DNA of 64,000 nt from Escherichia coli (GTDB taxonomy: Bacteria > Pseudomonadota > Gammaproteobacteria > Enterobacterales > Enterobacteriaceae). Every line of letters starts with the position of its first letter. The stretch's first letter is position 1. Positions 1 to 13,322 of this stretch are shown here, piece after piece. The translations under genes and the position numbers were made by a program. The notes under the pieces were generated by a model. The model was not told where the DNA came from and ran no database searches. It saw only the letters and a list, made by a program, of their open reading frames with translations. Location: NCBI RefSeq assembly GCF_046105845.1, contig NZ_CP151004.1, one strand, 5' to 3'.

Positions 1-273
1 GGCGACAAACGCTGTAATTACCAGCGCCGGAACAGGGCCAGGCATTTTTTTTGCTGTTTTCACCTGATTTCGTTCAATTGTTTTATGTAAGGATTTTCCC
101 ATCAACGGTAATTTTGTCACTGCACGACCGACATTTCCGGCCTGTTTTCCTAAATGAACTCTTTCGGCTGCACCATATTTTTCGACAACGGTAATGAGAT
201 GTTCACACACCGTTGACTTGCCTGAACCATCGCTACCAATAACGGCAATTAATGGAGGTGTTATTGACTGCAT
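1..273 (-). CDS. yghT: P-loop NTPase (nucleotide-kinase-like), N-terminal part; gene continues beyond window start
   Basis: Minus-strand ATG at 273..271 preceded by AAGGA SD; translation [22 protein letters not shown]... carries a Walker A motif paralogous to the two downstream ORFs; position matches K-12 gene order (recalled). Confidence 0.7.
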
Positions 274-446
274 GAATATATCCTTTAATTTAAATATCCA
301 TTAAAAATATTTATTTGGTTAATATGTTTTTATGAAAGCGTAATTCAGGTCAATGTCACAATTAACCATTGTCACAATAAGGTTGAACGGATATTCTGAG
401 CACGGACCACGTAATATTCAATACATTATTTGCTGCCGGGTTTTTC

Positions 447-1160
447 GTGAATCAACGTAATATGTCAATAATTAATTCCACGCCAGTGCGTGTTATTGCC
501 ATTGTAGGATGTGATGGTTCAGGTAAATCGACCCTCACGGCAAGCCTGGTAAATGAACTGGCAGCAAGAATGCCAACAGAACACATTTATCTCGGGCAAT
601 CGTCCGGGCGAATTGGCGAATGGATTTCACAGCTCCCTGTTATTGGCGCACCTTTTGGGCGTTATTTGCGAAGTAAAGCGGCACATGTGCACGAAAAGCC
701 CTCAACACCGCCTGGCAATATTACTGCTCTGGTTATCTATCTGCTTTCCTGCTGGCGGGCGTACAAGTTTCGCAAAATGTTGTGTAAAAGCCAGCAAGGC
801 TTTCTGCTCATCACCGACCGCTACCCGCAGGTTGAAGTGCCGGGTTTTCGCTTTGATGGCCCGCAATTGGCAAAAACCACGGGCGGTAACGGTTGGATAA
901 AAATGTTAAGGCAGCGCGAGCTGAAGCTGTACCAATGGATGGCATCTTATTTGCCCGTATTGTTGATTCGTCTTGGCATTGATGAACAAACGGCGTTTGC
1001 GCGTAAACCTGACCACCAACTGGCAGCGTTACAGGAAAAAATCGCCGTTACGCCGCAACTGACATTCAATGGTGCAAAGATCCTTGAACTGGATGGTCGG
1101 CAACCAGCCGATGAAATTCTGCAAGCGTCACTACGCGCAATTCACGCCGCGCTTTCCTGA
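447..1160 (+). CDS. yghS: P-loop NTPase, nucleotide-kinase-like (237 aa)
   Basis: ORF track; Walker A GCDGSGKST near N-terminus, DRYP motif; paralog of neighbours; GTG start at 447 (alternative ATG at 462). Confidence 0.75.
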   Translation: MNQRNMSIINSTPVRVIAIVGCDGSGKSTLTASLVNELAARMPTEHIYLGQSSGRIGEWISQLPVIGAPFGRYLRSKAAHVHEKPSTPPGNITALVIYLLSCWRAYKFRKMLCKSQQGFLLITDRYPQVEVPGFRFDGPQLAKTTGGNGWIKMLRQRELKLYQWMASYLPVLLIRLGIDEQTAFARKPDHQLAALQEKIAVTPQLTFNGAKILELDGRQPADEILQASLRAIHAALS

Positions 1161-1191
1161 TCACCAAAATGGATAGGGGATGATTTAACGA

Positions 1192-1950
1192 ATGGATGCA
1201 CTACAAACACAAACTGTTATTAGTACAACCGCGCCGCAGCCCAGCTACATTCCGGGGCTAATTGCGGTGGTCGGGTGTGATGGCACCGGTAAATCCACAC
1301 TGACCACCGACCTGGTGAAATCGCTGCAACAACACTGGCAAACCGAGCGGCGCTATCTGGGGCTGCTCTCCGGCGAAGACGGCGACAAAATCAAACGATT
1401 GCCGTTGGTTGGCGTCTGGCTGGAACGGCGACTGGCGGCCAAATCCTCGAAAACCCAAAGCATGAAAACCAAATCTCCTGCGCTATGGGCGGCGGTGATT
1501 ATGTACTGCTTCTCGCTGCGAAGAATGGCGAATCTACGCAAGGTTCAGCGACTGGCGCAAAGTGGCGTTCTGGTGGTCAGCGATCGCTTCCCGCAGGCTG
1601 AAATTTCGGGCTTTTATTATGACGGACCGGGGATTGGCGTCGAACGTGCGACCGGGAAAATCAGCATGTTTCTGGCGCAGCGCGAACGGCGTTTATACCA
1701 ACAAATGGCGCAATACCGTCCTGAATTAATCATTCGTTTGGGGATTGATATTGATACTGCCATCTCCCGCAAGCCTGACCATGACTATGCCGAGCTGCAG
1801 GACAAAATCGGTGTTATGTCGACGATTGGCTATAACGGCACAAAAATTCTTGAGATTGATTCCAGAGCGCCCTACAGCGAAGTGCTGGAACAGGCACAGA
1901 AGGCGGTTTCTCTGGTTGCCATCGTTTCTGACCGCCGAAGTTTAACTTAA
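1192..1950 (+). CDS. yghR: P-loop NTPase, nucleotide-kinase-like (252 aa)
   Basis: ORF track; Walker A GCDGTGKST, DRFP motif; paralog of yghS/yghT. Confidence 0.75.
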   Translation: MDALQTQTVISTTAPQPSYIPGLIAVVGCDGTGKSTLTTDLVKSLQQHWQTERRYLGLLSGEDGDKIKRLPLVGVWLERRLAAKSSKTQSMKTKSPALWAAVIMYCFSLRRMANLRKVQRLAQSGVLVVSDRFPQAEISGFYYDGPGIGVERATGKISMFLAQRERRLYQQMAQYRPELIIRLGIDIDTAISRKPDHDYAELQDKIGVMSTIGYNGTKILEIDSRAPYSEVLEQAQKAVSLVAIVSDRRSLT

Positions 1951-1995
1951 GGCTGGCGGGATACTTTTTACTATCAACGATAAGGTCAGGCTGAA

Positions 1996-3345
1996 TTGGC
2001 GGGTTTTAACATCAAACATTGGTTTGCAGATGGCGCGTTTCGCACCATTATTCGCAATAGCGCCTGGTTAGGCTCCAGTAATGTCGTGAGCGCCTTGCTG
2101 GGTCTGTTGGCGCTCTCGTGTGCCGGTAAAGGGATGACGCCCGCCATGTTTGGCGTACTGGTGATTGTGCAATCGTACGCCAAGTCGATCAGCGATTTTA
2201 TTAAGTTTCAGACATGGCAGCTGGTGGTTCAGTACGGAACACCAGCATTAACCAACAATAATCCGCAGCAATTCCGCAATGTCGTCTCATTTTCCTTCTC
2301 GCTGGATATCGTCAGCGGCGCGGTGGCGATTGTCGGCGGCATTGCCTTACTCCCTTTTCTTTCCCATTCATTAGGTCTGGATGACCAAAGCTTTTGGCTG
2401 GCGGCGCTGTATTGCACGCTCATTCCTTCAATGGCTTCCTCCACGCCGACCGGCATTCTGCGTGCGGTAGATCGCTTCGATTTAATTGCTGTACAGCAGG
2501 CGACGAAACCTTTTCTGCGCGCAGCGGGGAGCGTCGTAGCCTGGTATTTTGACTTTGGTTTTGCGGGCTTTGTTATTGCCTGGTACGTGTCGAATCTGGT
2601 TGGCGGCACCATGTACTGGTGGTTTGCCGTGCGCGAATTACGCTGCAGAAATATCCATAACGCCTTCAAATTGAATCTGTTTGAGTCTGCCCGACACATT
2701 AAAGGCGCGTGGAGTTTTGTCTGGTCAACCAACATTGCCCACTCCATCTGGTCGGCACGTAACTCGTGCAGCACAGTGTTGGTGGGGATCGTGTTAGGAC
2801 CCGCTGCCGCCGGGTTATTTAAAATCGCCATGACATTCTTCGACGCCGCCGGAACGCCAGCGGGTTTACTGGGTAAAAGTTTTTACCCAGAGGTGATGCG
2901 TTTAGATCCGCGCACCACCAGACCGTGGTTGTTAGGCGTGAAGTCAGGTTTACTGGCGGGCGGAATCGGTATTCTGGTGGCGCTCGCGGTGTTGATCGTC
3001 GGCAAGCCGCTCATTTCGCTGGTGTTTGGCGTTAAGTATCTCGAAGCGTATGACCTGATTCAGGTGATGCTGGGCGCAATTGTGATTTCGATGCTGGGCT
3101 TCCCACAGGAGTCATTGCTATTGATGGCGGGAAAACAGCGTGCTTTTCTCGTGGCGCAAACCATCGCCTCAATCGGCTACATCGTATTGCTGTTCATGTT
3201 CTGTCATCTGTTTGGCGTGCTGGGGGCTGCATTTGCTTACTTCGCTGGGCAATGTCTGGATGTGGTGCTCTCGCTAATTCCAACCTTAAAGGCATTTTTT
3301 CAGCGCCATTCCTTGCTTTATAACGCAGCCGGAGAGAAATCCTGA
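1996..3345 (+). CDS. yghQ: Polytopic membrane protein, Wzx/MOP-type polysaccharide or lipid flippase-like (start uncertain, TTG at 1996)
   Basis: 449-aa ORF, highly hydrophobic with multiple predicted TM segments; position after yghR as in K-12 (recalled). Confidence 0.65.
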   Translation: MAGFNIKHWFADGAFRTIIRNSAWLGSSNVVSALLGLLALSCAGKGMTPAMFGVLVIVQSYAKSISDFIKFQTWQLVVQYGTPALTNNNPQQFRNVVSFSFSLDIVSGAVAIVGGIALLPFLSHSLGLDDQSFWLAALYCTLIPSMASSTPTGILRAVDRFDLIAVQQATKPFLRAAGSVVAWYFDFGFAGFVIAWYVSNLVGGTMYWWFAVRELRCRNIHNAFKLNLFESARHIKGAWSFVWSTNIAHSIWSARNSCSTVLVGIVLGPAAAGLFKIAMTFFDAAGTPAGLLGKSFYPEVMRLDPRTTRPWLLGVKSGLLAGGIGILVALAVLIVGKPLISLVFGVKYLEAYDLIQVMLGAIVISMLGFPQESLLLMAGKQRAFLVAQTIASIGYIVLLFMFCHLFGVLGAAFAYFAGQCLDVVLSLIPTLKAFFQRHSLLYNAAGEKS

Positions 3346-4169
3346 TGATGAGAAAATATTTCCCGCTTGAGGCTAGCGAGCGTCTATTTGTTGCGATTGA
3401 AGAAGATGATGTCGTTGATGCACAGGTCAGTTTGCCGCCGACTATCGCACTAAGTTGTACCACCGAAATCATCCATGATAATTACGCGTTATGCCTGAAA
3501 TTCTGGCTGGATGGTGTTAATCGTCAGGAGCTACTGCGTTTAATCCGCAAACAGGCGAAAGGCGATGAGCTGACGACAGACGAGCGCAAAAAGTATAAAT
3601 ACATGCGAGCGCGCTACAAGCACCTGCGTTTTGCGCAACGGCTGTATTTAAAGAAGCATCAGGCCGGATTTTTATTCGGCAAAACGACCGTTTTTTTGGG
3701 GCGTTTTCAGGACGGCTTTCGTAACGGTAAGAAAAATATTGTGTCGTATTACGGCAACCTGTTACGGGTTTATTTAAGCTCTTCGGTCTGGTCGTTGGTG
3801 AACTATTCATTACGCCATAGCCAGTTAGAAAGCGTAAGCGGTTTTATTGCCTATCGGCAAAAGCAAATGCATACCCTGAAAGAGATAATTGCCAAACCGC
3901 GACTAACTGGCAGGGAATTTCATGATGTGCGAAAAATCATCAGCCAGCAGGTTTCTTATTACGACACCCTAAGATCGCTTGATCCTGAAAATAAAGAGGC
4001 GTTACAGATTTCCCGCTTCCTCGCCGCCATTAATGGCCTGATGGGGGATAAACACGACGACATGGTGGCGGATGATATGGAAAACCGCCAGTCGTATGAT
4101 GCACCGGTGGCGCTGGATAGCGATATTCGCCAGCGCTTAGAGCTGCTGATTTCGCGTTTTCCGCTATAA
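3345..4169 (+). CDS. Hypothetical soluble protein (274 aa), basic, no recognisable motif
   Basis: ORF track; ATG overlaps yghQ stop (TGATG) suggesting translational coupling. Confidence 0.6.
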   Translation: MMRKYFPLEASERLFVAIEEDDVVDAQVSLPPTIALSCTTEIIHDNYALCLKFWLDGVNRQELLRLIRKQAKGDELTTDERKKYKYMRARYKHLRFAQRLYLKKHQAGFLFGKTTVFLGRFQDGFRNGKKNIVSYYGNLLRVYLSSSVWSLVNYSLRHSQLESVSGFIAYRQKQMHTLKEIIAKPRLTGREFHDVRKIISQQVSYYDTLRSLDPENKEALQISRFLAAINGLMGDKHDDMVADDMENRQSYDAPVALDSDIRQRLELLISRFPL

Positions 4170-4177
4170 CCGGAGCA

Positions 4178-4741
4178 ATGATGTCATCTCGTTTGATTAT
4201 TGCGCTGATTATCATGCTCTTAGCCCCGGGTGTGCAGGCACACAATTTCGTCACTGGCAAAACGGTTACCCCCGTTTATATCCAGGAAGGCGGTGAGTTG
4301 CTTCTGAATAGCGACGACGAAATTCACTACCAAAAGTGGAACAGCACACAGCTGGCGGGAAAAGTCCGCATTATTCAGTATATCGCCGGGCGTAAGTCGG
4401 CGAAGAAAAAGAACTCACTGTTAATTAAAGCGGTTGAAGCGGCAAACTTTCCGCAGGATCGTTTTCAGCCCACCACCATTGTGAACACCGATGATGCCAT
4501 CTTTGGTACTGGCTATTTTGTCGTTGGCAAAATCGAAAAAAATAAACGCCGCTATCCGTGGGCGCAATTCGTTATTGACGGCAATGGACTGGGACGCGTT
4601 GCCTGGCGGTTGCCGGAGCAGAGTTCAACCATTCTGGTGCTGAATAAAGACGGGCAAATTCAGTGGGCAAAGGACGGCAGCCTGACGCCGGAAGAGGTAG
4701 ATCATGTCATTGCGCTGGCGCAGAAACTGATCAATGAATAA
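4178..4741 (+). CDS. Secreted/periplasmic protein, YtfJ-like (187 aa)
   Basis: N-terminal signal peptide MMSSRLIIALIIMLLAPGVQA; overall similarity to the YtfJ periplasmic family as I recall it. Confidence 0.6.
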   Translation: MMSSRLIIALIIMLLAPGVQAHNFVTGKTVTPVYIQEGGELLLNSDDEIHYQKWNSTQLAGKVRIIQYIAGRKSAKKKNSLLIKAVEAANFPQDRFQPTTIVNTDDAIFGTGYFVVGKIEKNKRRYPWAQFVIDGNGLGRVAWRLPEQSSTILVLNKDGQIQWAKDGSLTPEEVDHVIALAQKLINE

Positions 4742-4771
4742 AAAATTCAAAGGATTGAGGGCGTTAGTGAG

Positions 4772-5842
4772 ATGAAGCTGGTTGAACACTACATCATGCG
4801 TGGTACGCGCCGTCTGGTGTTGATTATCGTCGGTTTTCTGATCTTTATTTTCGCCAGCTACTCCGCACAGCGTTATCTGGCCGAAGCGGCAAATGGGACA
4901 TTAGCTCTTGATGTTGTGCTGGATATCGTTTTCTACAAAGTGCTGATTGCACTGGAGATGCTGTTACCTGTTGGACTATATGCTTCAGTTGGCGTGACGC
5001 TAGGGCAAATGTATACCGACTCGGAAATTACCGCTATCTCCGCGGCGGGGGGCAGTCCGGGACGCTTGTACAAAGCCGTTCTTTATCTGGCGATACCGCT
5101 AAGTATTTTTGTCACCCTTCTGTCGATGTATGGTCGTCCGTGGGCTTATGCGCAGATTTATCAATTGGAGCAACAGTCACAGTCGGAGCTGGATGTTCGC
5201 CAGTTGCGGGCAAAGAAATTTAACACTAACGATAACGGACGAATGATCCTTTCGCAGACGGTTGATCAGGATAATAATCGCCTGACTGACGCGCTGATTT
5301 ATACTTCTACTGCCAATCGAACCCGCATTTTCCGCGCCCGTTCGGTTGATGTGGTTGACCCATCACCTGAGAAACCGACTGTTATGTTGCACAACGGCAC
5401 TGCCTATCTTCTCGATCATCAGGGGCGTGACGACAACGAACAGATCTACCGTAATCTGCAATTACATCTGAATCCGCTGGATCAAAGCCCTAACGTCAAA
5501 CGCAAAGCGAAATCGGTCACGGAGCTGGCGCGCTCCGTCTTTCCAGCCGATCATGCCGAACTGCAATGGCGACAAAGCCGTGGCCTGACAGCATTGTTGA
5601 TGGCGCTGCTGGCCATTTCATTAAGTCGGGTAAAACCGCGGCAAGGGCGATTTTCAACATTATTGCCACTGACGTTGCTGTTTATTGCCATTTTTTATGG
5701 CGGCGACGTCTGCCGTACGCTGGTGGCTAACGGCGCGATTCCCCTCATTCCTGGTTTGTGGTTAGTACCCGGACTCATGCTAATGGGCCTGCTGATGCTG
5801 GTCGCACGCGACTTCTCTTTGCTGCAGAAATTTTCCCGATGA
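4772..5842 (+). CDS. LptF-like permease (YjgP/YjgQ family) paralog
   Basis: 356-aa membrane protein; N-terminal TM block, central periplasmic domain, C-terminal TM block; conserved SEITAI motif as in LptF/LptG. Confidence 0.7.
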   Translation: MKLVEHYIMRGTRRLVLIIVGFLIFIFASYSAQRYLAEAANGTLALDVVLDIVFYKVLIALEMLLPVGLYASVGVTLGQMYTDSEITAISAAGGSPGRLYKAVLYLAIPLSIFVTLLSMYGRPWAYAQIYQLEQQSQSELDVRQLRAKKFNTNDNGRMILSQTVDQDNNRLTDALIYTSTANRTRIFRARSVDVVDPSPEKPTVMLHNGTAYLLDHQGRDDNEQIYRNLQLHLNPLDQSPNVKRKAKSVTELARSVFPADHAELQWRQSRGLTALLMALLAISLSRVKPRQGRFSTLLPLTLLFIAIFYGGDVCRTLVANGAIPLIPGLWLVPGLMLMGLLMLVARDFSLLQKFSR

Positions 5843-6918
5843 ATGTTTTCAGTCGCTATTTAATCCGTCATCTCTTTCTCGGTTTTGCCGCCGCCGCAGG
5901 ATTATTGCTGCCGCTTTTTACCACCTTCAACCTGATTAACGAACTGGATGATGTCAGCCCGGGCGGTTATCGCTGGACTCAGGCGGTGCTGGTGGTGCTG
6001 ATGACCTTACCGCGCACACTGGTCGAACTTTCGCCGTTTATCGCATTATTGGGAGGGATTGTTGGCCTGGGGCAGTTATCGAAAAACAGTGAGCTTACCG
6101 CTATTCGCAGCACTGGGTTTTCTATCTTCCGTATTGCACTGGTGGCGCTGGTTGCCGGGATATTGTGGACTGTTTCGTTAGGCGCGATAGATGAGTGGGT
6201 GGCGTCGCCATTGCAGCAACAGGCGCTGCAAATCAAATCGACTGCCACCGCGTTGGGGGAGGACGATGACATTACCGGCAATATGCTTTGGGCCAGGCGC
6301 GGTAATGAATTTGTGACGGTGAAATCGCTGAACGAGCAGGGCCAGCCTGTGGGCGTGGAGATATTTCATTATCGCGACGATCTCTCGCTCGAATCCTACA
6401 TTTTTGCACGCAGTGCCACCATTGAAGACGACAAAACGTGGATCCTGCATGGTGTGAATCATAAAAAATGGTTGAATGGCAAAGAAACGCTGGAAACATC
6501 AGATAATCTTGCCTGGCAATCGGCCTTCACCAGTATGGATCTTGAAGAGTTATCGATGCCGGGGAATACTTTTTCTGTCCGTCAGCTTAATCATTACATC
6601 CATTATTTGCAGGAAACCGGGCAACCCAGCAGCGATTACCGCCTTGCACTGTGGGAAAAACTGGGGCAACCCATCTTAACTCTGGCGATGATTTTGCTGG
6701 CTGTGCCGTTTACCTTTAGTGCCCCGCGTTCGCCTGGGATGGGTAGCCGTCTCGCTGTAGGCGTCATCGTGGGCTTACTCACCTGGATCAGCTATCAAAT
6801 CATGGTCAATCTGGGATTGCTATTTGCGTTGAGCGCACCTGTTACCGCGCTCGGTTTACCGATAGCGTTTGTGCTGGTGGCGTTGAGCCTGGTGTATTGG
6901 TATGACAGTCAACATTAA
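5839..6918 (+). CDS. LptG-like permease (YjgP/YjgQ family) paralog
   Basis: ATG at 5839 overlaps upstream stop (ATGA); MNVFSRYLIRH... with SELTAI motif; same topology as LptG. Confidence 0.7.
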   Translation: MNVFSRYLIRHLFLGFAAAAGLLLPLFTTFNLINELDDVSPGGYRWTQAVLVVLMTLPRTLVELSPFIALLGGIVGLGQLSKNSELTAIRSTGFSIFRIALVALVAGILWTVSLGAIDEWVASPLQQQALQIKSTATALGEDDDITGNMLWARRGNEFVTVKSLNEQGQPVGVEIFHYRDDLSLESYIFARSATIEDDKTWILHGVNHKKWLNGKETLETSDNLAWQSAFTSMDLEELSMPGNTFSVRQLNHYIHYLQETGQPSSDYRLALWEKLGQPILTLAMILLAVPFTFSAPRSPGMGSRLAVGVIVGLLTWISYQIMVNLGLLFALSAPVTALGLPIAFVLVALSLVYWYDSQH

Positions 6919-6952
6919 ACCCGCCGTGGCGCAGCACCACAGCGGGCTCACA

Positions 6953-8125
6953 TTACTGCTTCAGAGTAGCAAATGCCTGAATGATGGCATCGATTTGCTC
7001 ACGACTGTGGGCAGCGTTTACGCTACAGCGCAGCAGCGTGATGCCTGCAGGCGCGGCAGGTGGCAGGATAAGATTCACATAAACGCCCAGCGAAATAAGC
7101 TCGCGCCAGATGCGTAAACCTTCCTCTTTCGAACCGATTATTACTGGCACTACCGGGCTAATATGTGAACTTAACTCGTAACCCAGTTTTTGCAGACCGT
7201 CATACAGATGGTTGGCGTTATCCATCAGCTTTTGCCGCAGCTCTGGTTGTGAGGCAATGGTTCTTAACGACGAGCGCACGGTCGCAATGCAGGACGGAGA
7301 AGGAGAGGCGGTAAAAATATACGGGCGGCTGCCGTAGCGCAGCACTTCCATCGCTTCCGAACCGACAGCAAAACCGCCAATCGAGGCCAGACTTTTACTG
7401 AAAGTACCAACGATAATATCCACATCATCTTCAACGCCAACGGCTTCAGCCAGTCCGCGCCCCATTGCGCCTAACACGCCAAACGAATGCGCTTCATCGA
7501 CAATCAAATAACCACCGAGACGACGTTTGATATCAACAATTTCCGCTAACGGCGCAACGTCACCGAGCATGCTGTAGATACCCTCAACGATGATAATCGC
7601 CTCTTTCGCCCGTTCACCGAGGCGAACCATGCGCCGTTCCAGATCTTTAGCATCGTTATGGCGGAAACGAATAATTTCCGCGCCACCGAGAGAACAGGCG
7701 TCATAAATACTGGCGTGGCTGTCGGCATCCAGTAACACCACGGCGTTATGGTCGGCAAGTGCGCTGATGACGCCTAAATTAGCGGTATAACCGGTTGAAA
7801 AAACGATAGCGGTAGGGCGATTAAAAAACTCGGCGATCTCTTTCTCTAACGCCAGATGCGGCGCATAACTGCCGTTTGCCATACGAGAACCGGTGGTGCC
7901 GGTGCCTTGGGCCGCTAACGCTGCCTGACCTTCGGCGATGGCATCATGATTGAAGGTTAATCCGAGATAATTATTGGTCCCGGCCAGAATCACTTTTTTA
8001 TTGCCGATCCGACCTTCGGTGGCGGAATACACTTCATCAATACAGGTACCAAACGGCGTTAACCCGTTGTCACTAAATTGCAGTCGCTCGCCAGCAAGGC
8101 GCGCATATTTATCGTATAGCCCCAT
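6953..8125 (-). CDS. PLP-dependent alpha-oxoamine synthase (serine palmitoyltransferase / BioF / Kbl family), 390 aa
   Basis: Motifs NNYLGL, GTFSKSL (PLP-lysine), DEAHSFG; start ATG overlaps upstream ACP stop (TAATG). Confidence 0.8.
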   Translation of the reverse strand: MGLYDKYARLAGERLQFSDNGLTPFGTCIDEVYSATEGRIGNKKVILAGTNNYLGLTFNHDAIAEGQAALAAQGTGTTGSRMANGSYAPHLALEKEIAEFFNRPTAIVFSTGYTANLGVISALADHNAVVLLDADSHASIYDACSLGGAEIIRFRHNDAKDLERRMVRLGERAKEAIIIVEGIYSMLGDVAPLAEIVDIKRRLGGYLIVDEAHSFGVLGAMGRGLAEAVGVEDDVDIIVGTFSKSLASIGGFAVGSEAMEVLRYGSRPYIFTASPSPSCIATVRSSLRTIASQPELRQKLMDNANHLYDGLQKLGYELSSHISPVVPVIIGSKEEGLRIWRELISLGVYVNLILPPAAPAGITLLRCSVNAAHSREQIDAIIQAFATLKQ

Positions 8126-8373
8126 TATTTATTCTCCAGCCATGGAAGTAGTGTTTCCATTAATTGCGCAGGGGTTTTGACATCCAGCAGAATATTAATA
8201 GGAATGGAAATATCGAATCTGTCTTCCAGCATCATTAAGAGATCCATCACTTTGATCGACTCCAGGCCAAGATCGTTGACGAGATCGCTGTCGGGCTTAA
8301 TTTCCACACCGTTTTCGACCAAATCCTGTAAACAGGAAAGGATGTAATCCATTACTATTTCACGATTTACCAT
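8125..8373 (-). CDS. Acyl carrier protein (82 aa)
   Basis: DLGLESIKVMDL phosphopantetheine-attachment motif; small acidic protein. Confidence 0.8.
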   Translation of the reverse strand: MVNREIVMDYILSCLQDLVENGVEIKPDSDLVNDLGLESIKVMDLLMMLEDRFDISIPINILLDVKTPAQLMETLLPWLENK

Positions 8374-8404
8374 AGAAACGTTAACACACCTTTAAACAAG
8401 ACAA

Positions 8405-9319
8405 TCAAAATAGCCCGTTGCGTAATGCGTGTTCCAGGCTAATCCCGGGAAACCAATTAATATCTTCAGAAATACGGTTATTACTTGCCGACCAGTCGGC
8501 ATGAGTTAATTCACGGATTTTCGAACGAGTCAGCATCGGTTCTTTACCCGCCAGACGGCTCAACGCGGTACTGATATCCGCAAGGCAGGTGAGTAGCGAC
8601 AGAGGAATACCGACCATCCGCACGGAACCACAACGGGCGTCGGCGGCAAGCTGTCTTACGCGTTGCCAGTCATAGCCGCCGGCGACGCCATCGCATAATT
8701 CATAGGTTTGCGTCTGTACAGTTTCGGCGCTTAACCACTGCCCCACGGCTTGCGCGAAATCGGTGACGTGCAGGAAAGAGAGCTGTGTCTCTGGCGCACC
8801 AAGTCGTGGCAGCAGGCCGCGCAGCATCCAGTCAAACAGCGGTTTTAACTCTTTATCGCCGGGACCATACACGGCTGTCGGGCGAAAAACGCCCAGCGTA
8901 ATTTCATCAGCCATTGCAGTCAGCCGTTGTTCGGCGACGTGTTTGGAATTTGCGTACCAGGAGAGTTCGGGATGGCGCGCCGCCAGCGAAGAGATAAACA
9001 GAAAACGTTGGCAAAAGCCGCTCTCTTTTGCCGCTTGCATCAGTCGCAGGCTGCCGTCAACGTTACAGCGGGTAAAAATCTCTTCTTTGTGCCCGCGCAC
9101 TTGCCCGGCGCAATGGACCACCGCGCTGGCTCCGGCAACCAGTTCGCTAAGTGAATGAGTATCTTCCAGAGAACCGCGCACCCAGATGAGATTGTCATTG
9201 ACGTGAGCGCGGGCAGTACGCGTCAATGTGCGAACGTGAAAGCCGCGGGCGAGCAGGTTATCGATAATATATTTACCGATAAACCCGGTAGCGCCCGTCA
9301 CCGCGACAGTTTGATTCAT
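8405..9319 (-). CDS. NAD(P)-dependent epimerase/dehydratase-family reductase (SDR fold), ~304 aa
   Basis: Rossmann motif VAVTGATGFIGKYII just after ATG at 9319; ATG overlaps upstream stop (ATGA); longer ORF-track start at 9529 rejected. Confidence 0.7.
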   Translation of the reverse strand: MNQTVAVTGATGFIGKYIIDNLLARGFHVRTLTRTARAHVNDNLIWVRGSLEDTHSLSELVAGASAVVHCAGQVRGHKEEIFTRCNVDGSLRLMQAAKESGFCQRFLFISSLAARHPELSWYANSKHVAEQRLTAMADEITLGVFRPTAVYGPGDKELKPLFDWMLRGLLPRLGAPETQLSFLHVTDFAQAVGQWLSAETVQTQTYELCDGVAGGYDWQRVRQLAADARCGSVRMVGIPLSLLTCLADISTALSRLAGKEPMLTRSKIRELTHADWSASNNRISEDINWFPGISLEHALRNGLF

Positions 9320-11037
9320 GCCAGGGATTCCTGCACATGAAGGCTTGCAGCATAAGCCTTCTGATAACGTTTTTTCGCTTCCGCACGGGCAGGCTTGCCG
9401 GAGGACGTTCGGGGAATACTGTGGGGCGGCAACAGATCGATAGCCGCTGTTACGCCAAATTCGCTTTGGATCCGTGCTACCAGCGCGTGGATAAGCTGCC
9501 CACGACGTTCTTCGTCGCTGATCCGACACTGGATCTGCAAAATGATTTTTTCCTGGGCGGTAACAAAAGCAATCGCATCGCCAGAATGAATTTCCGGTTC
9601 CTGTTCCGCAATATATTCAATATCCTGCGGCCAGATATTACGGCCACGAATAATAATCAGATCTTTAATGCGCCCGGTGACATACAGATAACCGTCCAGC
9701 AGATAACCGAGGTCGCCGGTGTCTAACCAGCCCGTCGCGGCAATCTCGTCTTGTGAAATCTGGTCGCCAAAGTAACCGCTCATCAGGCTAGGGCCGGAGA
9801 TGCAAATATGGCCTACCACACGTTCCGCGGCAGGTATACCTGCTTCATTGCGGATTTCAATGCCATGTTCTGGCAACGCTTTACCGCAGTTGACGAAAGT
9901 CGATACGGCGCGTGTTTCAGCACCCGGCGCGACGGCTTTGCCCTGATATTCAAGGATGTCGCGATCCACTTCGTTAACCACAACCCCGGAGGCTTCATCA
10001 GAGAAGCTGACAGCCAGCGCATTTTCTGCCAGTCCGTAGCACGGCATGAACGTTTTATCGTCAAAGTTAACCTGACGGAAACATTCAGCGAATTGATGGA
10101 GTTGTTCTGCGGAGATCGGCTCAGCACCAATACCAGCGACGCGCCAGCAGGATAGATCCAGTTCAGCGAGATCTTTTTCATTCACGCGGCGCTGGCACAA
10201 TTCATAGCCAAACGGCGGCGCAACGGAAACGGTGCCGCGATTTTTACTGATCAATTTAAGCCATTGCAGAGGACGCATGGCAAAATCCTGAGTGCGCAAA
10301 TAATCTACTGAGAGCTGCGTGGCGACGGGGGTCAGGAGAAAGCCGACCAGTCCCATATCATGGTAGAAAGGCAGCCAGGAGACGCAGCGGTCGCCAGGGC
10401 GTAATTTAATGCCATCGTGGCTTATAGCACGTAGATTAGCCATCACTTCGCGATGGGTGATAATGACGCCACGGGGAAAACGGGTGCTGCCGGAGGTGTA
10501 CTGGAGGTAGGCGATATCGTTCGGAACTGGATGCTGGAGTGCAACATCGGCTTCCGGTAATGCCTTAAACCAGGCGTGGCTTAAAACATGTAATTCGGGG
10601 TTGTTATGCGTAGCGGCATTGACCAGTGGCAACCACTCATCACCAGTGATAATGGCTGCGGGCTGGCAACTTGTCAGTAAACCCTGCAGTTTGGCGCTCC
10701 AGGAATCCCGCTGACCGACGCCCATTGGAATCGCCAACGGGACGGCGACTAAGCCGGCATACTGGCAGGAAAAAAAAGCCTCTACGAACCCGCTACTGGT
10801 TTCGGCAATCAGCGCCACGCGATCGCCTTTTTTCAGGTTCAGCGATAACAACCGCTTCGCACCAGCTTCGGCACGCGCTTTTAACGTCTGATATTCCAGT
10901 TGATCTTCAAGTTGGCAACGTCTGTCATAAAAATTCATTCCGGCGCTACTCAGAGCGGCGTAGTCCAAAGCATCAACCAGCGTTGGAAAATCGGCATAGC
11001 GCATAGGTAGGGAATGCGTAAAGATTTTATTAGACAT
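9316..11037 (-). CDS. Fatty acyl-AMP ligase / acyl-ACP synthetase (AMP-binding superfamily), ~573 aa
   Basis: AMP-binding signature YTSGSTRFPRGV; N-terminus MSNKIFTHSLPMRYADF typical of FAAL-type enzymes; ATG at 11037. Confidence 0.75.
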   Translation of the reverse strand: MSNKIFTHSLPMRYADFPTLVDALDYAALSSAGMNFYDRRCQLEDQLEYQTLKARAEAGAKRLLSLNLKKGDRVALIAETSSGFVEAFFSCQYAGLVAVPLAIPMGVGQRDSWSAKLQGLLTSCQPAAIITGDEWLPLVNAATHNNPELHVLSHAWFKALPEADVALQHPVPNDIAYLQYTSGSTRFPRGVIITHREVMANLRAISHDGIKLRPGDRCVSWLPFYHDMGLVGFLLTPVATQLSVDYLRTQDFAMRPLQWLKLISKNRGTVSVAPPFGYELCQRRVNEKDLAELDLSCWRVAGIGAEPISAEQLHQFAECFRQVNFDDKTFMPCYGLAENALAVSFSDEASGVVVNEVDRDILEYQGKAVAPGAETRAVSTFVNCGKALPEHGIEIRNEAGIPAAERVVGHICISGPSLMSGYFGDQISQDEIAATGWLDTGDLGYLLDGYLYVTGRIKDLIIIRGRNIWPQDIEYIAEQEPEIHSGDAIAFVTAQEKIILQIQCRISDEERRGQLIHALVARIQSEFGVTAAIDLLPPHSIPRTSSGKPARAEAKKRYQKAYAASLHVQESLA

Positions 11038-11408
11038 ATACACCACGAAAAAATTGGATATCAAAAATAAAATGACAATAATGCGGTGGATTATATAGGC
11101 ATAAAAGATAAATGAGATAGTATTTTCATCAGTGTGAAAATGAACATTGATTTAAATAATGAGTTTGAGTTTTTTTGTTTTTATTGTGAATGATATTTAA
11201 TTTATGAATATATTAAGAATAAGCCTTGTCCGGTCGCCTTAAATCGACAAAAGGCATTGTGGCGCTTCTGTGTAGTCTCTAACCTTATCGTAATCATTAA
11301 TAAATACTATTTATTCGTCGTTTGTATTCATTGGGTTGATTATTAAGGTGCCGTTCGTTGCTGTTGCAACCTGTTTGTCACCGTTAATTATTTGTTACCC
11401 ACAGAACT
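11038..11408. promoter_or_regulatory. AT-rich divergent intergenic region between the FAAL operon and yghO (promoters inferred, not mapped)
   Basis: 371 bp with long A/T runs between divergently oriented start codons. Confidence 0.4.
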
Positions 11409-12551
11409 ATGGAATGCGATCTGCTGATGATTAAAATTGAAAAAGTAATTAATAAAAATGACCTTAAGGCATTTATCGCTTTTCCGTCATCACTTTATCC
11501 CGACGATCCAAACTGGATACCCCCTTTATTCATTGAACGCAACGAGCATTTGTCTGCGAAAAATCCGGGGACGGACCATATCATCTGGCAGGCGTGGGTG
11601 GCAAAAAAAGCGGGGCAGATAGTTGGGCGTATTACCGTGCAAATAGATACCTTGCACCGCGAGCGTTACGGTGAAGATACCGGTCATTTCGGCATGATTG
11701 ACGCCATTGATGATCCGCAGGTTTTTGCCGCGTTGTTTGGCGCAGCGGAAGCGTGGTTGAAGTCACAAGGTGCAAGTAAGATCAGCGGTCCTTTCAGCCT
11801 GAATATCAATCAGGAAAGCGGATTACTGATTGAAGGTTTCGATACACCACCCTGTGCGATGATGCCGCACGGTAAACCGTGGTATGCCGCGCATATTGAA
11901 CAATTGGGTTATCACAAAGGCATTGATTTACTAGCGTGGTGGATGCAGCGAACCGATCTCACTTTCTCTCCGGCGCTAAAAAAACTGATGGATCAGGTGC
12001 GTAAGAAGGTGACCATTCGCTGCATCAATCGCCAGCGGTTTGCCGAAGAGATGCAGATCCTGCGTGAGATTTTCAACTCTGGCTGGCAGCACAACTGGGG
12101 ATTTGTGCCGTTTACCGAACATGAATTCGCGACTATGGGCGATCAACTTAAATATCTGGTGCCGGACGATATGATCTACATCGCTGAGATTGATTCTGCA
12201 CCCTGCGCGTTTATTGTTGGCTTGCCAAACATCAACGAGGCGATTGCCGATCTGAACGGATCGCTCTTTCCCTTCGGCTGGGCAAAATTGCTGTGGCGTT
12301 TAAAAGTCAGCGGTGTGCGTACTGCGCGAGTACCGCTGATGGGCGTGCGGGACGAGTATCAGTTTAGCCGCATCGGCCCGGTGATTGCGCTGTTATTGAT
12401 TGAAGCCTTACGCGATCCGTTTGCCCGCCGGAAGATCGATGCGCTGGAAATGTCATGGATCCTCGAAACCAATACAGGCATGAATAACATGCTGGAACGC
12501 ATTGGGGCAGAGCCGTACAAGCGTTACCGATTGTATGAAAAGCAGATTTGA
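11409..12551 (+). CDS. yghO: YghO-like protein (380 aa), candidate acyltransferase; function unverified
   Basis: ORF track; position between lipid operon and glcC as for K-12 yghO (recalled); no motif I can assign confidently. Confidence 0.6.
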   Translation: MECDLLMIKIEKVINKNDLKAFIAFPSSLYPDDPNWIPPLFIERNEHLSAKNPGTDHIIWQAWVAKKAGQIVGRITVQIDTLHRERYGEDTGHFGMIDAIDDPQVFAALFGAAEAWLKSQGASKISGPFSLNINQESGLLIEGFDTPPCAMMPHGKPWYAAHIEQLGYHKGIDLLAWWMQRTDLTFSPALKKLMDQVRKKVTIRCINRQRFAEEMQILREIFNSGWQHNWGFVPFTEHEFATMGDQLKYLVPDDMIYIAEIDSAPCAFIVGLPNINEAIADLNGSLFPFGWAKLLWRLKVSGVRTARVPLMGVRDEYQFSRIGPVIALLLIEALRDPFARRKIDALEMSWILETNTGMNNMLERIGAEPYKRYRLYEKQI

Positions 12552-12557
12552 TGGCAG

Positions 12558-13322
12558 TCACCCCTGCTTCATCTCCAGCGGCACCGCCGAGCGAATCAAA
12601 TGGTGGCCTTCCAGCTCGATATCGTGGAGATTCTTTTTCACGGTCCGCACATGATCGCGTGCTGCGCGCTGGGCGACGTGCGGCAGCCGCTGCAACACCG
12701 CGTTGTAGATCCGCGCATGCTGGCGATCGATCTGCTTTTTTTGCTGTGGTCGATGGTAGAGATTATTTACGCTGGCAAACACTGAATTAAACATCAGATC
12801 GGTCAATGATTGCAGCGTAAACACCAACACCTGATTGTGAGAAGCCTGACAAATGGCGAGATGGAAAGCGTGATCCAACTGCGCATGTTCGATCAGCGAA
12901 ATCTCTTTGTTGTTCTCACTGGCGGCGAGCATTTTTTCATAACAGCGGGTTATCACAACAAAATCAGCCTGGGTTCCCAGCGTTGCCGCAAGCCTTGCCG
13001 ATTCCCCCTCCAGCAATGCGCGAACGTCGAGCAGATCGTACAGCGTTCGCGGCTGCGTGCTGAACAGATGAATTAGCGGGCTGGTATCCTGCACCCGATT
13101 AAGCCGTGCGACACGAGAATCGCGACCCTGCGCTGTTTCAATAATCCCGCGCCCGCGCAGCACGGTCAGCCCTTCACGCAGTGCGGAGCGTGAGAAGCCG
13201 AGCTTTTCACACAGTCGACGTTCCGAGGGAAGCGGCTGACCGACCTTCAGTACGCCGTCGATAATTAACCGTTCGATACTCTCTGCAACCACTTCGCAAA
13301 TAGGGCGACGTTCATCTTTCAT
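12558..13322 (-). CDS. glcC: GntR-family transcriptional activator of the glc operon
   Basis: MKDERRPICEVVAESIERLIIDGVLKVGQPLPSERRL... matches GlcC; start at internal ATG 13322 (254 aa). Confidence 0.9.
   Translation of the reverse strand: MKDERRPICEVVAESIERLIIDGVLKVGQPLPSERRLCEKLGFSRSALREGLTVLRGRGIIETAQGRDSRVARLNRVQDTSPLIHLFSTQPRTLYDLLDVRALLEGESARLAATLGTQADFVVITRCYEKMLAASENNKEISLIEHAQLDHAFHLAICQASHNQVLVFTLQSLTDLMFNSVFASVNNLYHRPQQKKQIDRQHARIYNAVLQRLPHVAQRAARDHVRTVKKNLHDIELEGHHLIRSAVPLEMKQG

What the first reader, a model, noticed from the sequence alone, without database searches (positions are those of the whole stretch)
4772..6918. Second LptF/LptG-like permease pair without a cognate ABC ATPase
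Two adjacent, translationally coupled genes (ATGA overlap at 5839–5842) encode YjgP/YjgQ-family permeases. The canonical LptFG pair extracts LPS from the inner membrane using the LptB ATPase. A paralogous pair next to a lipid-biosynthesis operon and a flippase suggests a dedicated extractor or transporter for a non-LPS lipid. No ABC ATPase gene is in the locus, so it may borrow LptB or use the adjacent P-loop proteins.
Basis: partly seen in the sequence, partly recalled or inferred. Interest (0 to 1): 0.75.

Follow-up and report, generated by a model that had tools for sequence, protein, structure and literature searches.

The report
Second LptFG pair for sphingolipid export
About three quarters of E. 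coli strains carry a second copy of the two membrane proteins that pull lipopolysaccharide out of the inner membrane; it sits in a sphingolipid-synthesis gene cluster and most likely exports that lipid using the borrowed LptB motor, an arrangement already described for Caulobacter in 2024-2026.

Summary
Window 4772-5842 and 5839-6918 are two intact genes that overlap by ATGA. One is LptF-type and one LptG-type, both above NCBIfam's curated cut-offs. They are a true second pair: canonical lptFG is in 5425 of 5426 complete E. coli genomes, this pair in 4130. K-12 lost it through an IS5-associated deletion.

The neighbouring "AOS operon" is the E. coli dihydroceramide cluster (spt, acpR, reductase, aasR, yghO), parts of which have been tested biochemically. 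Across 55 fully flanked loci from Enterobacterales, Pseudomonas, Azotobacter and betaproteobacteria, the pair lies within 10 kb of acpR and the reductase in 55 and of spt in 54. F2 and G2 each form a clade separate from canonical LptF and LptG, keep the LptB-docking coupling-helix glutamate, and are under strong purifying selection.

There is no ABC ATPase in the 64-kb window. YghR/S are P-loop kinase-like proteins, not ABC domains.

Olea-Ozuna et al. proposed it in 2024. A 2026 preprint shows that Caulobacter LptF2/G2 bind LptB, and its figure draws the E. coli UTI89 locus. The finding is therefore real, well interpreted and already known, but untested in E. coli.

The parts
4772..5842 (+). 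lptF2: LptF-type permease, 356 aa
   Evidence: TIGR04407 at 317 bits against a cut-off of 230. PF03739 matches full length. The AF2 model (pLDDT 81.6) has three TM helices, a coupling helix at 85-91, a beta-jellyroll at 150-232 and three more TM helices. Its best PDB match is LptF chain 9dok_F, TM 0.82, and the top 33 matches are all LptF or LptG chains. It is 26-30% identical to canonical LptF. E85 aligns with LptF E84 and R34 with R33.
5839..6918 (+). lptG2: LptG-type permease, 359 aa; its start overlaps the lptF2 stop (ATGA)
   Evidence: TIGR04408 at 306 bits against a cut-off of 240. PF03739 matches full length. E about 1e-41 to solved LptG chains. 28-29% identical to canonical LptG. E85 aligns with LptG E88 and G93 with G96.
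1996..3345 (+). yghQ: MOP/Wzx-type flippase-like membrane protein, 449 aa, same operon direction
   Evidence: PF01943 Polysacc_synt, E 7e-9. NCBIfam MOP flippase match is weak. This is the same family (IPR002797) as Caulobacter CC_1166, the proposed sphingolipid flippase (PMC11324152 S1 text). A 29%-identical homologue directly follows LptG2 in locus L085.
3345..4169 (+). 274-aa protein with no family match and a CHAD-like all-helical fold
4178..4741 (+). YtfJ-family protein with an N-terminal signal-peptide-like segment
   Evidence: TIGR01626 at 215 bits against a cut-off of 151. PF09695, E 1.9e-59. N-terminus reads MMSSRLIIALIIMLLAPGVQA.
447..1160 (+). yghS: P-loop kinase-like protein
   Evidence: Weak dTMP-kinase match, E 1.9e-5, well below cut-off. 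Annotated yghS.
1192..1950 (+). yghR: P-loop kinase-like protein, not an ABC domain
   Evidence: Weak dTMP-kinase match. Shares only the Walker A motif with LptB, E 0.14.
6953..8125 (-). spt: serine palmitoyltransferase, convergent with lptG2
   Evidence: NF047599 at 598.7 bits against a cut-off of 500. The E. coli BL21 orthologue ECD_02854 forms 3-oxo-sphinganine (PMC9386255).
8125..8373 (-). acpR: specialised acyl carrier protein
   Evidence: ACP family matches. ECD_02853 was characterised in PMC9386255.
8405..9319 (-). NAD-dependent epimerase/dehydratase-family reductase (CerR/epi type)
   Evidence: Extended-SDR matches. ECD_02852 is a proposed reductase (PMC9386255).
9316..11040 (-). aasR: fatty acyl-AMP ligase / acyl-AcpR synthetase
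   Evidence: NF006624 at 869 bits against a cut-off of 600. ECD_02851 was tested in PMC9386255.
11409..12551 (+). yghO: predicted N-acyltransferase (aca / bCerS type)
   Evidence: No Pfam or NCBIfam hit. Named aca = yghO = ECD_02850 in PMC9386255. Homologues of 49-57% identity lie in distant LptF2G2 loci.

Best explanation
lptF2-lptG2 encode the two transmembrane halves of a second Lpt-type lipid extractor that belongs to the E. coli sphingolipid (dihydroceramide) locus. The proposed sequence is as follows. Spt, AcpR, AasR, YghO and the reductase make a ceramide-type lipid at the cytoplasmic face of the inner membrane. Unknown head-group chemistry follows; YghR/S/T, the CHAD-like protein and the YtfJ-like protein are candidates. 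YghQ, a Wzx/MOP-type protein, flips the lipid. [quoted passage not shown] The locus encodes no nucleotide-binding domain, so the energy most likely comes from the cell's single LPS ATPase LptB, which docks on the conserved coupling helices to form LptB2F2G2. Shown here: family, fold, paralogy, linkage to the sphingolipid genes, conserved coupling helix, absence of an ATPase gene, and purifying selection. Inferred: the substrate, the use of LptB, heterodimer formation, and the onward route (LptC/LptA/LptDE or something else).
For: - Family and fold.
- True second pair: canonical lptFG is in 5425/5426 genomes, this pair in 4130/5426.
- Sphingolipid context: the pair lies in a co-directional array yghS-yghR-yghQ-274aa-ytfJ-like-lptF2-lptG2 with gaps of 45 nt or less, convergent with spt-acpR-reductase-aasR.
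- Linkage across genomes: of 55 loci with full 10-kb flanks, LptF2 is present in 55, AcpR in 55, the reductase in 55 and SPT in 54. Metagenome relatives at 33-44% identity sit in the same kind of locus.
- Separate clades: G2 proteins are 44-100% identical to each other but 25-33% to canonical LptG, and the same holds for F2.
- LptB docking: the coupling-helix Glu and Gly are invariant in every F2 and G2 examined. These residues mediate LptB binding in E. coli LptFG (PMC5082905).
- No ABC domain anywhere in the window.
- Selection: dN/dS is 0.04-0.07 within Escherichia.
- Literature: Caulobacter lptF2/lptG2 can be deleted only when spt or cpgB is absent. LptF2 and LptG2 co-purify with each other and with LptB. 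E. coli UTI89 is drawn as having the same arrangement (bioRxiv 10.64898/2026.04.12.717747).
Against: - Nothing has been tested in E. coli. BL21(DE3), which carries the cluster, showed no 3-oxo-sphinganine-like lipid with empty vectors in PMC9386255, so the locus may be silent under laboratory conditions.
- The cluster is missing from about a quarter of strains, including K-12, so it is dispensable.
- The LptB interaction in Caulobacter rests on pull-downs in an unreviewed preprint.
- E. coli has no LptC2, and the onward route is unknown.
- NCBIfam equivalog models and RefSeq call both proteins LPS exporters.
Confidence: 0.68

Rival explanations
1. The pair works with an ABC ATPase other than LptB, encoded elsewhere in the genome. 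E. coli has dozens of nucleotide-binding domains.
For: No ATPase is linked to the pair in any Enterobacterales locus, so the partner cannot be read from context. The LptB partnership is shown only for Caulobacter, and only by pull-down.
Against: The coupling helices closely resemble those of canonical LptF/LptG, including the Glu and Gly needed for LptB binding (PMC5082905). The Caulobacter authors found no second lptB anywhere in that genome. LptF/G-type permeases are known to pair only with LptB (established knowledge).
Confidence: 0.1
2. The pair is a spare or specialised LPS (or other glycolipid) exporter, as the RefSeq names imply, and its position next to the sphingolipid genes is incidental.
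For: Both proteins pass NCBIfam's LptF and LptG equivalog cut-offs. RefSeq annotates them as LPS export permeases.
Against: Linkage to acpR, the reductase and spt holds in 54-55 of 55 loci across several orders. F2 and G2 fall in clades separate from canonical LptF and LptG. Canonical lptFG is present in essentially every genome regardless. In Caulobacter the paralogues become dispensable exactly when sphingolipid synthesis is removed.
Confidence: 0.07
3. In E. coli the locus is a cryptic leftover. The genes are intact but not used, and no lipid is exported.
For: No native sphingolipid was seen in BL21(DE3) carrying empty vectors (PMC9386255). K-12 and about 24% of strains lack the pair. Other deletion variants exist, such as an LptG2-GspC fusion protein.
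Against: dN/dS of 0.04-0.07 for both genes. The full 13-kb cluster is intact in 4051 of 5426 genomes. Gene order and the 4-base overlap are conserved across genera.
Confidence: 0.1
4. The adjacent P-loop proteins YghR/S/T energise the permeases in place of an ABC domain.
For: They are ATP-binding proteins in the same operon. YghR/S-like genes accompany the pair in 33 of 55 loci.
Against: They share only the Walker A motif with LptB and resemble dTMP/nucleoside kinases. They have no ABC signature and no detectable similarity to the helical region that receives coupling helices. Azotobacter, Stutzerimonas, Nitrococcus and betaproteobacterial loci keep F2G2 without them.
Confidence: 0.03

Closest known systems
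Caulobacter crescentus LptF2/LptG2 (CCNA_01214/CCNA_01213 = CC_1156/CC_1155). Proposed in PMC11324152 (2024); tested in bioRxiv 10.64898/2026.04.12.717747 (2026).
   Same: A second F-type plus G-type pair inside the spt/acpR/reductase/bCerS locus. No ATPase gene in the locus. A Polysacc_synt (IPR002797) flippase-like gene in the same locus (CC_1166 there, YghQ here). The preprint's Figure 2B draws the E. coli UTI89 locus as homologous.
   Different: E. coli has no LptC2. Its head-group genes differ: there are no DAGK_cat (CpgB), Metallophos or NTP-transferase genes, and instead it has YghR/S/T, a CHAD-like protein and a YtfJ-like protein. Nothing has been tested in E. coli. Orthology (one clade with the Caulobacter pair) was not tested here.
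Canonical E. coli LptB2FG(C) lipopolysaccharide extractor
   Same: Same Pfam and NCBIfam families and the same fold of 3 TM helices, beta-jellyroll, 3 TM helices. Same coupling-helix Glu and Gly. Adjacent F and G genes.
   Different: Only 26-29% identical and in separate clades. Accessory (4130 of 5426 genomes) rather than universal. Lies in a sphingolipid locus rather than the canonical lptFG locus elsewhere on the chromosome. The substrate is presumably a two-chain ceramide lipid, not hexa-acylated LPS.
LptF2/LptG2 loci of Pseudomonas, Azotobacter, Stutzerimonas, Nitrococcus and betaproteobacteria
   Same: 44-58% identical proteins. Same F2-G2 overlap. Same spt-acpR-reductase-aasR-yghO neighbours.
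   Different: These loci carry an MsbA/HepA-like fused ABC exporter, NTP-transferases, a metallophosphoesterase, a CDP-alcohol phosphatidyltransferase and a DAGK_cat kinase in place of YghQ/R/S/T, the CHAD-like protein and the YtfJ-like protein. They resemble the Caulobacter head-group set.
Sphingomonas wittichii LptFG next to spt (cited in the 2026 preprint)
   Same: LptFG-type genes sit beside sphingolipid synthesis genes.
   Different: According to the preprint, this is the organism's only LptFG pair, in a bacterium without LPS. It was not examined here.

Membership tests
LptF/LptG permease family (PF03739; TIGR04407 LptF, TIGR04408 LptG) | Full-length profile match above the curated cut-off, one protein F-type and one G-type | tested here: met
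   LptF 317 bits against 230, LptG 306 bits against 240. Each protein scores far lower on the other model, 61 and 87 bits. Pfam matches cover 2-352 and 1-352 of 353 model positions.
LptF/LptG permease family (PF03739; TIGR04407 LptF, TIGR04408 LptG) | Six transmembrane helices with a periplasmic beta-jellyroll between TM3 and TM4 | tested here: met
   LptF2 AF2 model: helices 3-40, 46-82, 97-136; strands 150-232; helices 258-284, 297-319, 331-347. Foldseek TM 0.82 to LptF chain 9dok_F, and the top 33 hits are all LptF or LptG chains. LptG2 was not modelled; the evidence for it is the end-to-end profile and PDB sequence alignment.
LptF/LptG permease family (PF03739; TIGR04407 LptF, TIGR04408 LptG) | Cytoplasmic coupling helix with the conserved glutamate (LptF E84, LptG E88) that docks in the LptB groove | tested here: met
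   LptF2 E85 and LptG2 E85 align with E84 and E88. Glu and the downstream Gly are invariant in all 27 F2 and 25 G2 sequences in the alignment. The role of these residues is described in PMC5082905.
LptF/LptG permease family (PF03739; TIGR04407 LptF, TIGR04408 LptG) | Forms an LptB2FG complex with the LptB ATPase | not testable with these tools
   No complex prediction or experiment was available. Shown by pull-down for Caulobacter LptF2/G2 only.
LptF/LptG permease family (PF03739; TIGR04407 LptF, TIGR04408 LptG) | Substrate is lipopolysaccharide (the function implied by the equivalog name) | not testable with these tools
   Context argues against it: linkage to sphingolipid genes in 54-55 of 55 loci. 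The LPS-phosphate-binding residues LptG K34, K40 and K41 are N, D and D here, but P. aeruginosa canonical LptG also lacks them, so this is not diagnostic.
Sphingolipid-locus LptF2/LptG2 (Olea-Ozuna 2024; Uchendu, Isom and Klein 2026) | Present in addition to a canonical lptFG pair | tested here: met
   Canonical pair in 5425 of 5426 genomes; this pair in 4130.
Sphingolipid-locus LptF2/LptG2 (Olea-Ozuna 2024; Uchendu, Isom and Klein 2026) | Encoded within the spt/acpR/reductase/N-acyltransferase locus | tested here: met
   spt ends 34 bases from lptG2. The linkage is conserved across genera.
Sphingolipid-locus LptF2/LptG2 (Olea-Ozuna 2024; Uchendu, Isom and Klein 2026) | No dedicated nucleotide-binding domain in the locus | tested here: met
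   tblastn with LptB against the window gives a best E of 0.021, P-loop only. Annotations list none.
Sphingolipid-locus LptF2/LptG2 (Olea-Ozuna 2024; Uchendu, Isom and Klein 2026) | Same clade as the tested Caulobacter proteins CCNA_01213 and CCNA_01214 | not tested
   No Caulobacter sequence was obtained. The genome scan returned only gamma- and betaproteobacteria. The preprint colours the E. coli genes as homologues.
Sphingolipid-locus LptF2/LptG2 (Olea-Ozuna 2024; Uchendu, Isom and Klein 2026) | Deletion is lethal only while the anionic sphingolipid is made | not testable with these tools
   Requires a genetic experiment.
ABC-transporter nucleotide-binding domain (considered as a role for YghR/S/T) | Walker A plus ABC signature, Q-loop and helical subdomain; similarity to LptB | tested here: not met
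   Only 14 residues around Walker A align with LptB, E 0.14. The best family matches are weak dTMP-kinase hits.

The most novel reading that the evidence does not exclude
Most E. coli strains, but not K-12, can make a so far unseen sphingolipid whose head group differs from Caulobacter's ceramide phosphoglycerate. The head group would be built by the Enterobacterales-specific set YghR/S/T, a CHAD-like protein and a periplasmic YtfJ-like protein. YghQ would flip the lipid and LptB2F2G2 would extract it. Two different lipid extractors would then compete for one essential ATPase, and perhaps for the same LptC-LptA-LptDE bridge, in a major pathogen.
Probability: 0.3. Interest if true: 0.6.

Novelty: already known. 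Interest (0 to 1): 0.3.

Why it matters
How bacterial sphingolipids reach the outer membrane was an open question until 2024-2026. The answer now emerging is a second LptFG pair that shares LptB with the LPS pathway.

The E. coli copy matters for three reasons.
- It puts that system into the best genetic and structural model for Lpt, so sharing of LptB, LptC, LptA and LptDE can be tested directly.
- It is carried by about 76% of sequenced strains, including pathogens, but is absent from K-12. This explains why decades of Lpt work never met it.
- RefSeq names both proteins 'LPS export permease LptF/LptG', which is probably wrong for this pair and can mislead gene-content and essentiality analyses.

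The Enterobacterales-specific accessory genes point to an unknown head group.

Tried and rejected
1. I tried the LPS-phosphate-binding residues as a marker of substrate. LptG K34, K40, K41 and R133 are N, D, D and L in LptG2, and the acidic pair is nearly invariant in the G2 clade. However, canonical P. aeruginosa LptG also lacks K34, K40 and K41 (A, N, D), so this was rejected as diagnostic.
2. The promoter and terminator scan of 1-13000 found no more sites than in shuffled sequence. It gives no operon boundaries.
3. PADLOC defence models returned nothing meaningful, so a defence-island reading is dropped.
4. YghR compared with LptB shares the P-loop only.
5. The YtfJ-like protein has no solved relative by sequence.
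6. I wanted Caulobacter and Sphingomonas sequences for the tree. The single genome scan returned only gamma- and betaproteobacteria, and the protein libraries carry no organism names for the distant hits. Orthology with the tested proteins stays untested.
7. I first assumed the window carried the integrating conjugative element annotated in NZ_CP062824.1. A direct comparison showed the window diverges from that genome after 39141 and continues with core genes.
8. GC content of the cluster (0.47-0.54) gives no sign of recent foreign origin.
Full report
**What is there**

The window is E. coli chromosome. Bases 4772-6918 are 100% identical to NZ_CP062824.1, and RefSeq annotates the same two CDS there. 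Gene 1 runs from ATG 4772 to TGA 5840-5842. Gene 2 starts at ATG 5839, so the four bases 5839-5842 read ATGA, and it ends at 6918. The mechanical ORF list offers an upstream GTG at 5758 for gene 2, but the Met at 5839 is invariant among homologues.

Both proteins match Pfam PF03739 from end to end. NCBIfam separates them cleanly. Gene 1 scores 317 bits on the LptF model (cut-off 230) and 61 on LptG. Gene 2 scores 306 bits on LptG (cut-off 240) and 87 on LptF.

Against solved structures they match LptF chains (E 1e-20 to 1e-32) and LptG chains (E about 1e-41) from E. coli, Shigella, Enterobacter, Klebsiella, Vibrio, Pseudomonas and Acinetobacter about equally. This is therefore not a recent copy of E. 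coli's own genes.

An AlphaFold2 model of gene 1, built on 44 homologues (pLDDT 81.6), has three TM helices, a short coupling helix, a beta-jellyroll and three more TM helices. Its best PDB matches are all LptF or LptG chains, with TM 0.82 to 9dok_F.

**Is it a second pair?**

I rebuilt canonical LptF (Shigella) and LptG (E. coli) from the PDB alignments, back-translated them, and searched the complete E. coli genomes.
- 5425 of 5426 genomes carry that locus, annotated lptF and lptG.
- The pair in the window is in 4130 of 5426.
- The whole 13-kb cluster around it is at least 80% present in 4051.
- K-12-like genomes have a truncated yghQ, then IS5, then yghO. Everything from the 274-aa gene to aasR is deleted.
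- Canonical LptF and LptG match nothing else in the window, and they match these genes at only 28-29% identity.

**Surroundings**

Upstream, on the same strand with gaps of 45 nt or less, lie:
- yghS and yghR, P-loop proteins with weak dTMP-kinase similarity;
- yghQ, a Polysacc_synt/MOP flippase-like protein;
- a 274-aa protein with no family match;
- a YtfJ-family protein with a signal-peptide-like N-terminus.

Convergent with lptG2 are four genes:
- a serine palmitoyltransferase (NF047599, 598.7 bits, cut-off 500);
- an acyl carrier protein;
- an extended-SDR reductase;
- a fatty acyl-AMP ligase.

These are followed by yghO. The 'AOS operon' is therefore the E. coli dihydroceramide cluster. 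Its BL21(DE3) orthologues are SPT ECD_02854, AcpR ECD_02853 and AasR ECD_02851. Expressed together they formed 3-oxo-sphinganine. ECD_02852 and yghO (ECD_02850) were assigned as reductase and N-acyltransferase (PMC9386255).

**No ATPase**

My recalled E. coli LptB sequence proved identical to PDB 6mgf_A. Used as a tblastn probe against all 64 kb, it finds only a 35-residue P-loop match in the gsp region (E 0.021). YghR aligns with LptB over 14 residues at Walker A only (E 0.14).

**Co-occurrence**

A scan of one genome per species with an LptG2 alignment gave 71 loci. They come from Escherichia, Hafnia, Shimwellia, Citrobacter, Serratia, Erwinia, Pantoea, Sodalis, Klebsiella indica, Pseudomonas, Azotobacter, Stutzerimonas, Nitrococcus and betaproteobacteria.

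tblastn with the window's proteins gave these counts for the 55 loci with full 10-kb flanks:

| Protein | Loci with a match (of 55) |
|---|---|
| LptF2 | 55 |
| AcpR | 55 |
| Reductase | 55 |
| SPT | 54 |

The one exception has the operon cut by the locus edge.

More distant relatives show the same context.
- Metagenome relatives at 37-44% identity sit in the same kind of locus.
- Relatives at 33-35% identity sit beside YghO-type and AasR-type genes. In one case a YghQ-type flippase directly follows LptG2.

The 4-base F2/G2 overlap is kept in 64 of 70 loci.

**Phylogeny and selection**

In a neighbour-joining tree, F2 proteins form one clade beside canonical LptF, and G2 proteins form one clade beside canonical LptG. 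G2 proteins are 44-100% identical to each other but 25-33% to canonical LptG, while the three canonical LptG sequences are 39-51% identical to one another. F2 behaves the same way. Among 132 full-length database representatives, the proteins nearest the G2 clade are again from sphingolipid-type loci. Within Escherichia, dN/dS is 0.04-0.07 for both genes.

**Mechanism**

The coupling helices read YTDSEITAISAAGGS in LptF2 against YTESEITVMHACGLS in LptF, and SKNSELTAIRSTGFS in LptG2 against AQRSELVVMQASGFT in LptG. The Glu (E84/E88 equivalents) and the following Gly are invariant in all F2 and G2 sequences examined. In E. coli these glutamates are required for LptB binding and function (PMC5082905).

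With no ATPase gene in the locus, the most economical model is LptB2F2G2.

This is also the published model. Olea-Ozuna et al. named CC_1156 and CC_1155 as LptF2 and LptG2, and CC_1166 (IPR002797, the YghQ family) as a probable flippase (PMC11324152). Uchendu, Isom and Klein reported four relevant results (bioRxiv 10.64898/2026.04.12.717747):
- Caulobacter lptF2, lptG2 and lptC2 can be deleted only in spt or cpgB mutants.
- LptF2 and LptG2 co-purify with each other and with LptB.
- Caulobacter has no second lptB.
- Figure 2B draws the E. coli UTI89 locus alongside Caulobacter and Sphingomonas.

**What remains open for E. coli**

- There is no LptC2.
- The Caulobacter-type head-group genes (DAGK_cat/CpgB, metallophosphoesterase, NTP-transferases, CDP-alcohol phosphatidyltransferase) are present in the Pseudomonas, betaproteobacterial and metagenome loci. 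In Enterobacterales they are replaced by YghQ/R/S/T, the 274-aa protein and the YtfJ-like protein.
- No native sphingolipid has been reported for E. coli in the papers I read. BL21 with empty vectors showed none.

**Verdict**

The kind of system, and this very locus, are already in the literature, so novelty is low. The residual interest lies in testing LptB sharing and the unknown head group in E. coli.

Noticed in passing
[not shown]
   Followed up: partly
window 4178-4741 (+): A second, operon-embedded member of the uncharacterised YtfJ_HI0045 family (PF09695, E 1.9e-59) with a signal-peptide-like N-terminus. It is the only apparently periplasmic soluble protein in the E. coli locus, which has no LptC2.
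   Followed up: partly
L083 (NZ_CP114891.1, K-12-like) 3496-6861; corresponds to window about 3060-11400: K-12-type strains have yghQ truncated, then an IS5, then yghO. The 274-aa gene, ytfJ-like, lptF2, lptG2, spt, acpR, the reductase and aasR are all deleted, so laboratory K-12 lacks the system.
   Followed up: yes
protein P0020, E. coli: A 456-aa E. coli protein combines the first 72% or so of LptG2 (99% identical) with a GspC domain (PF11356). This implies another strain-specific deletion that joins lptG2 to the downstream type II secretion operon.
   Followed up: no
L052 323-2104 (-), and L005/L006 15010-16722 (-): Pseudomonas and metagenome versions of the locus carry a fused MsbA/HepA-like ABC exporter where E. 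coli has the Wzx-like YghQ: beside spt in Pseudomonas mandelii (L052), about 4 kb downstream of lptG2 in the metagenome contigs L005/L006. The flipping step seems to be filled by two unrelated transporter types.
   Followed up: partly
L085 9078-15124: An Arhodomonas-like locus has, directly after LptF2G2, a YghQ-like flippase, three glycosyltransferases and a sulfotransferase-like gene. This suggests a glycosylated, possibly sulfated, sphingolipid.
   Followed up: no
L002 18745-43541 (NZ_CP062824.1), not in the window: The genome that matches the finding best carries an SPI-7/PFL_4669-type integrating conjugative element after yghD. The window lacks it and continues from 39141 with core genes (speC, nupG, hemW, galP).
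   Followed up: yes
window 1-13000: The window is 100% identical to NZ_CP062824.1 over 4772-6918 but only 98.8% over 1-13000 and 96.4% over 20457-39141. The region is therefore a mosaic relative to that strain.
   Followed up: no
window 20457-39141: Downstream of the glc operon, the window carries sslE, pppA and the complete gspS2/gspC-M (T2SS-beta) cluster. This is another region that is partly deleted in K-12.
   Followed up: no
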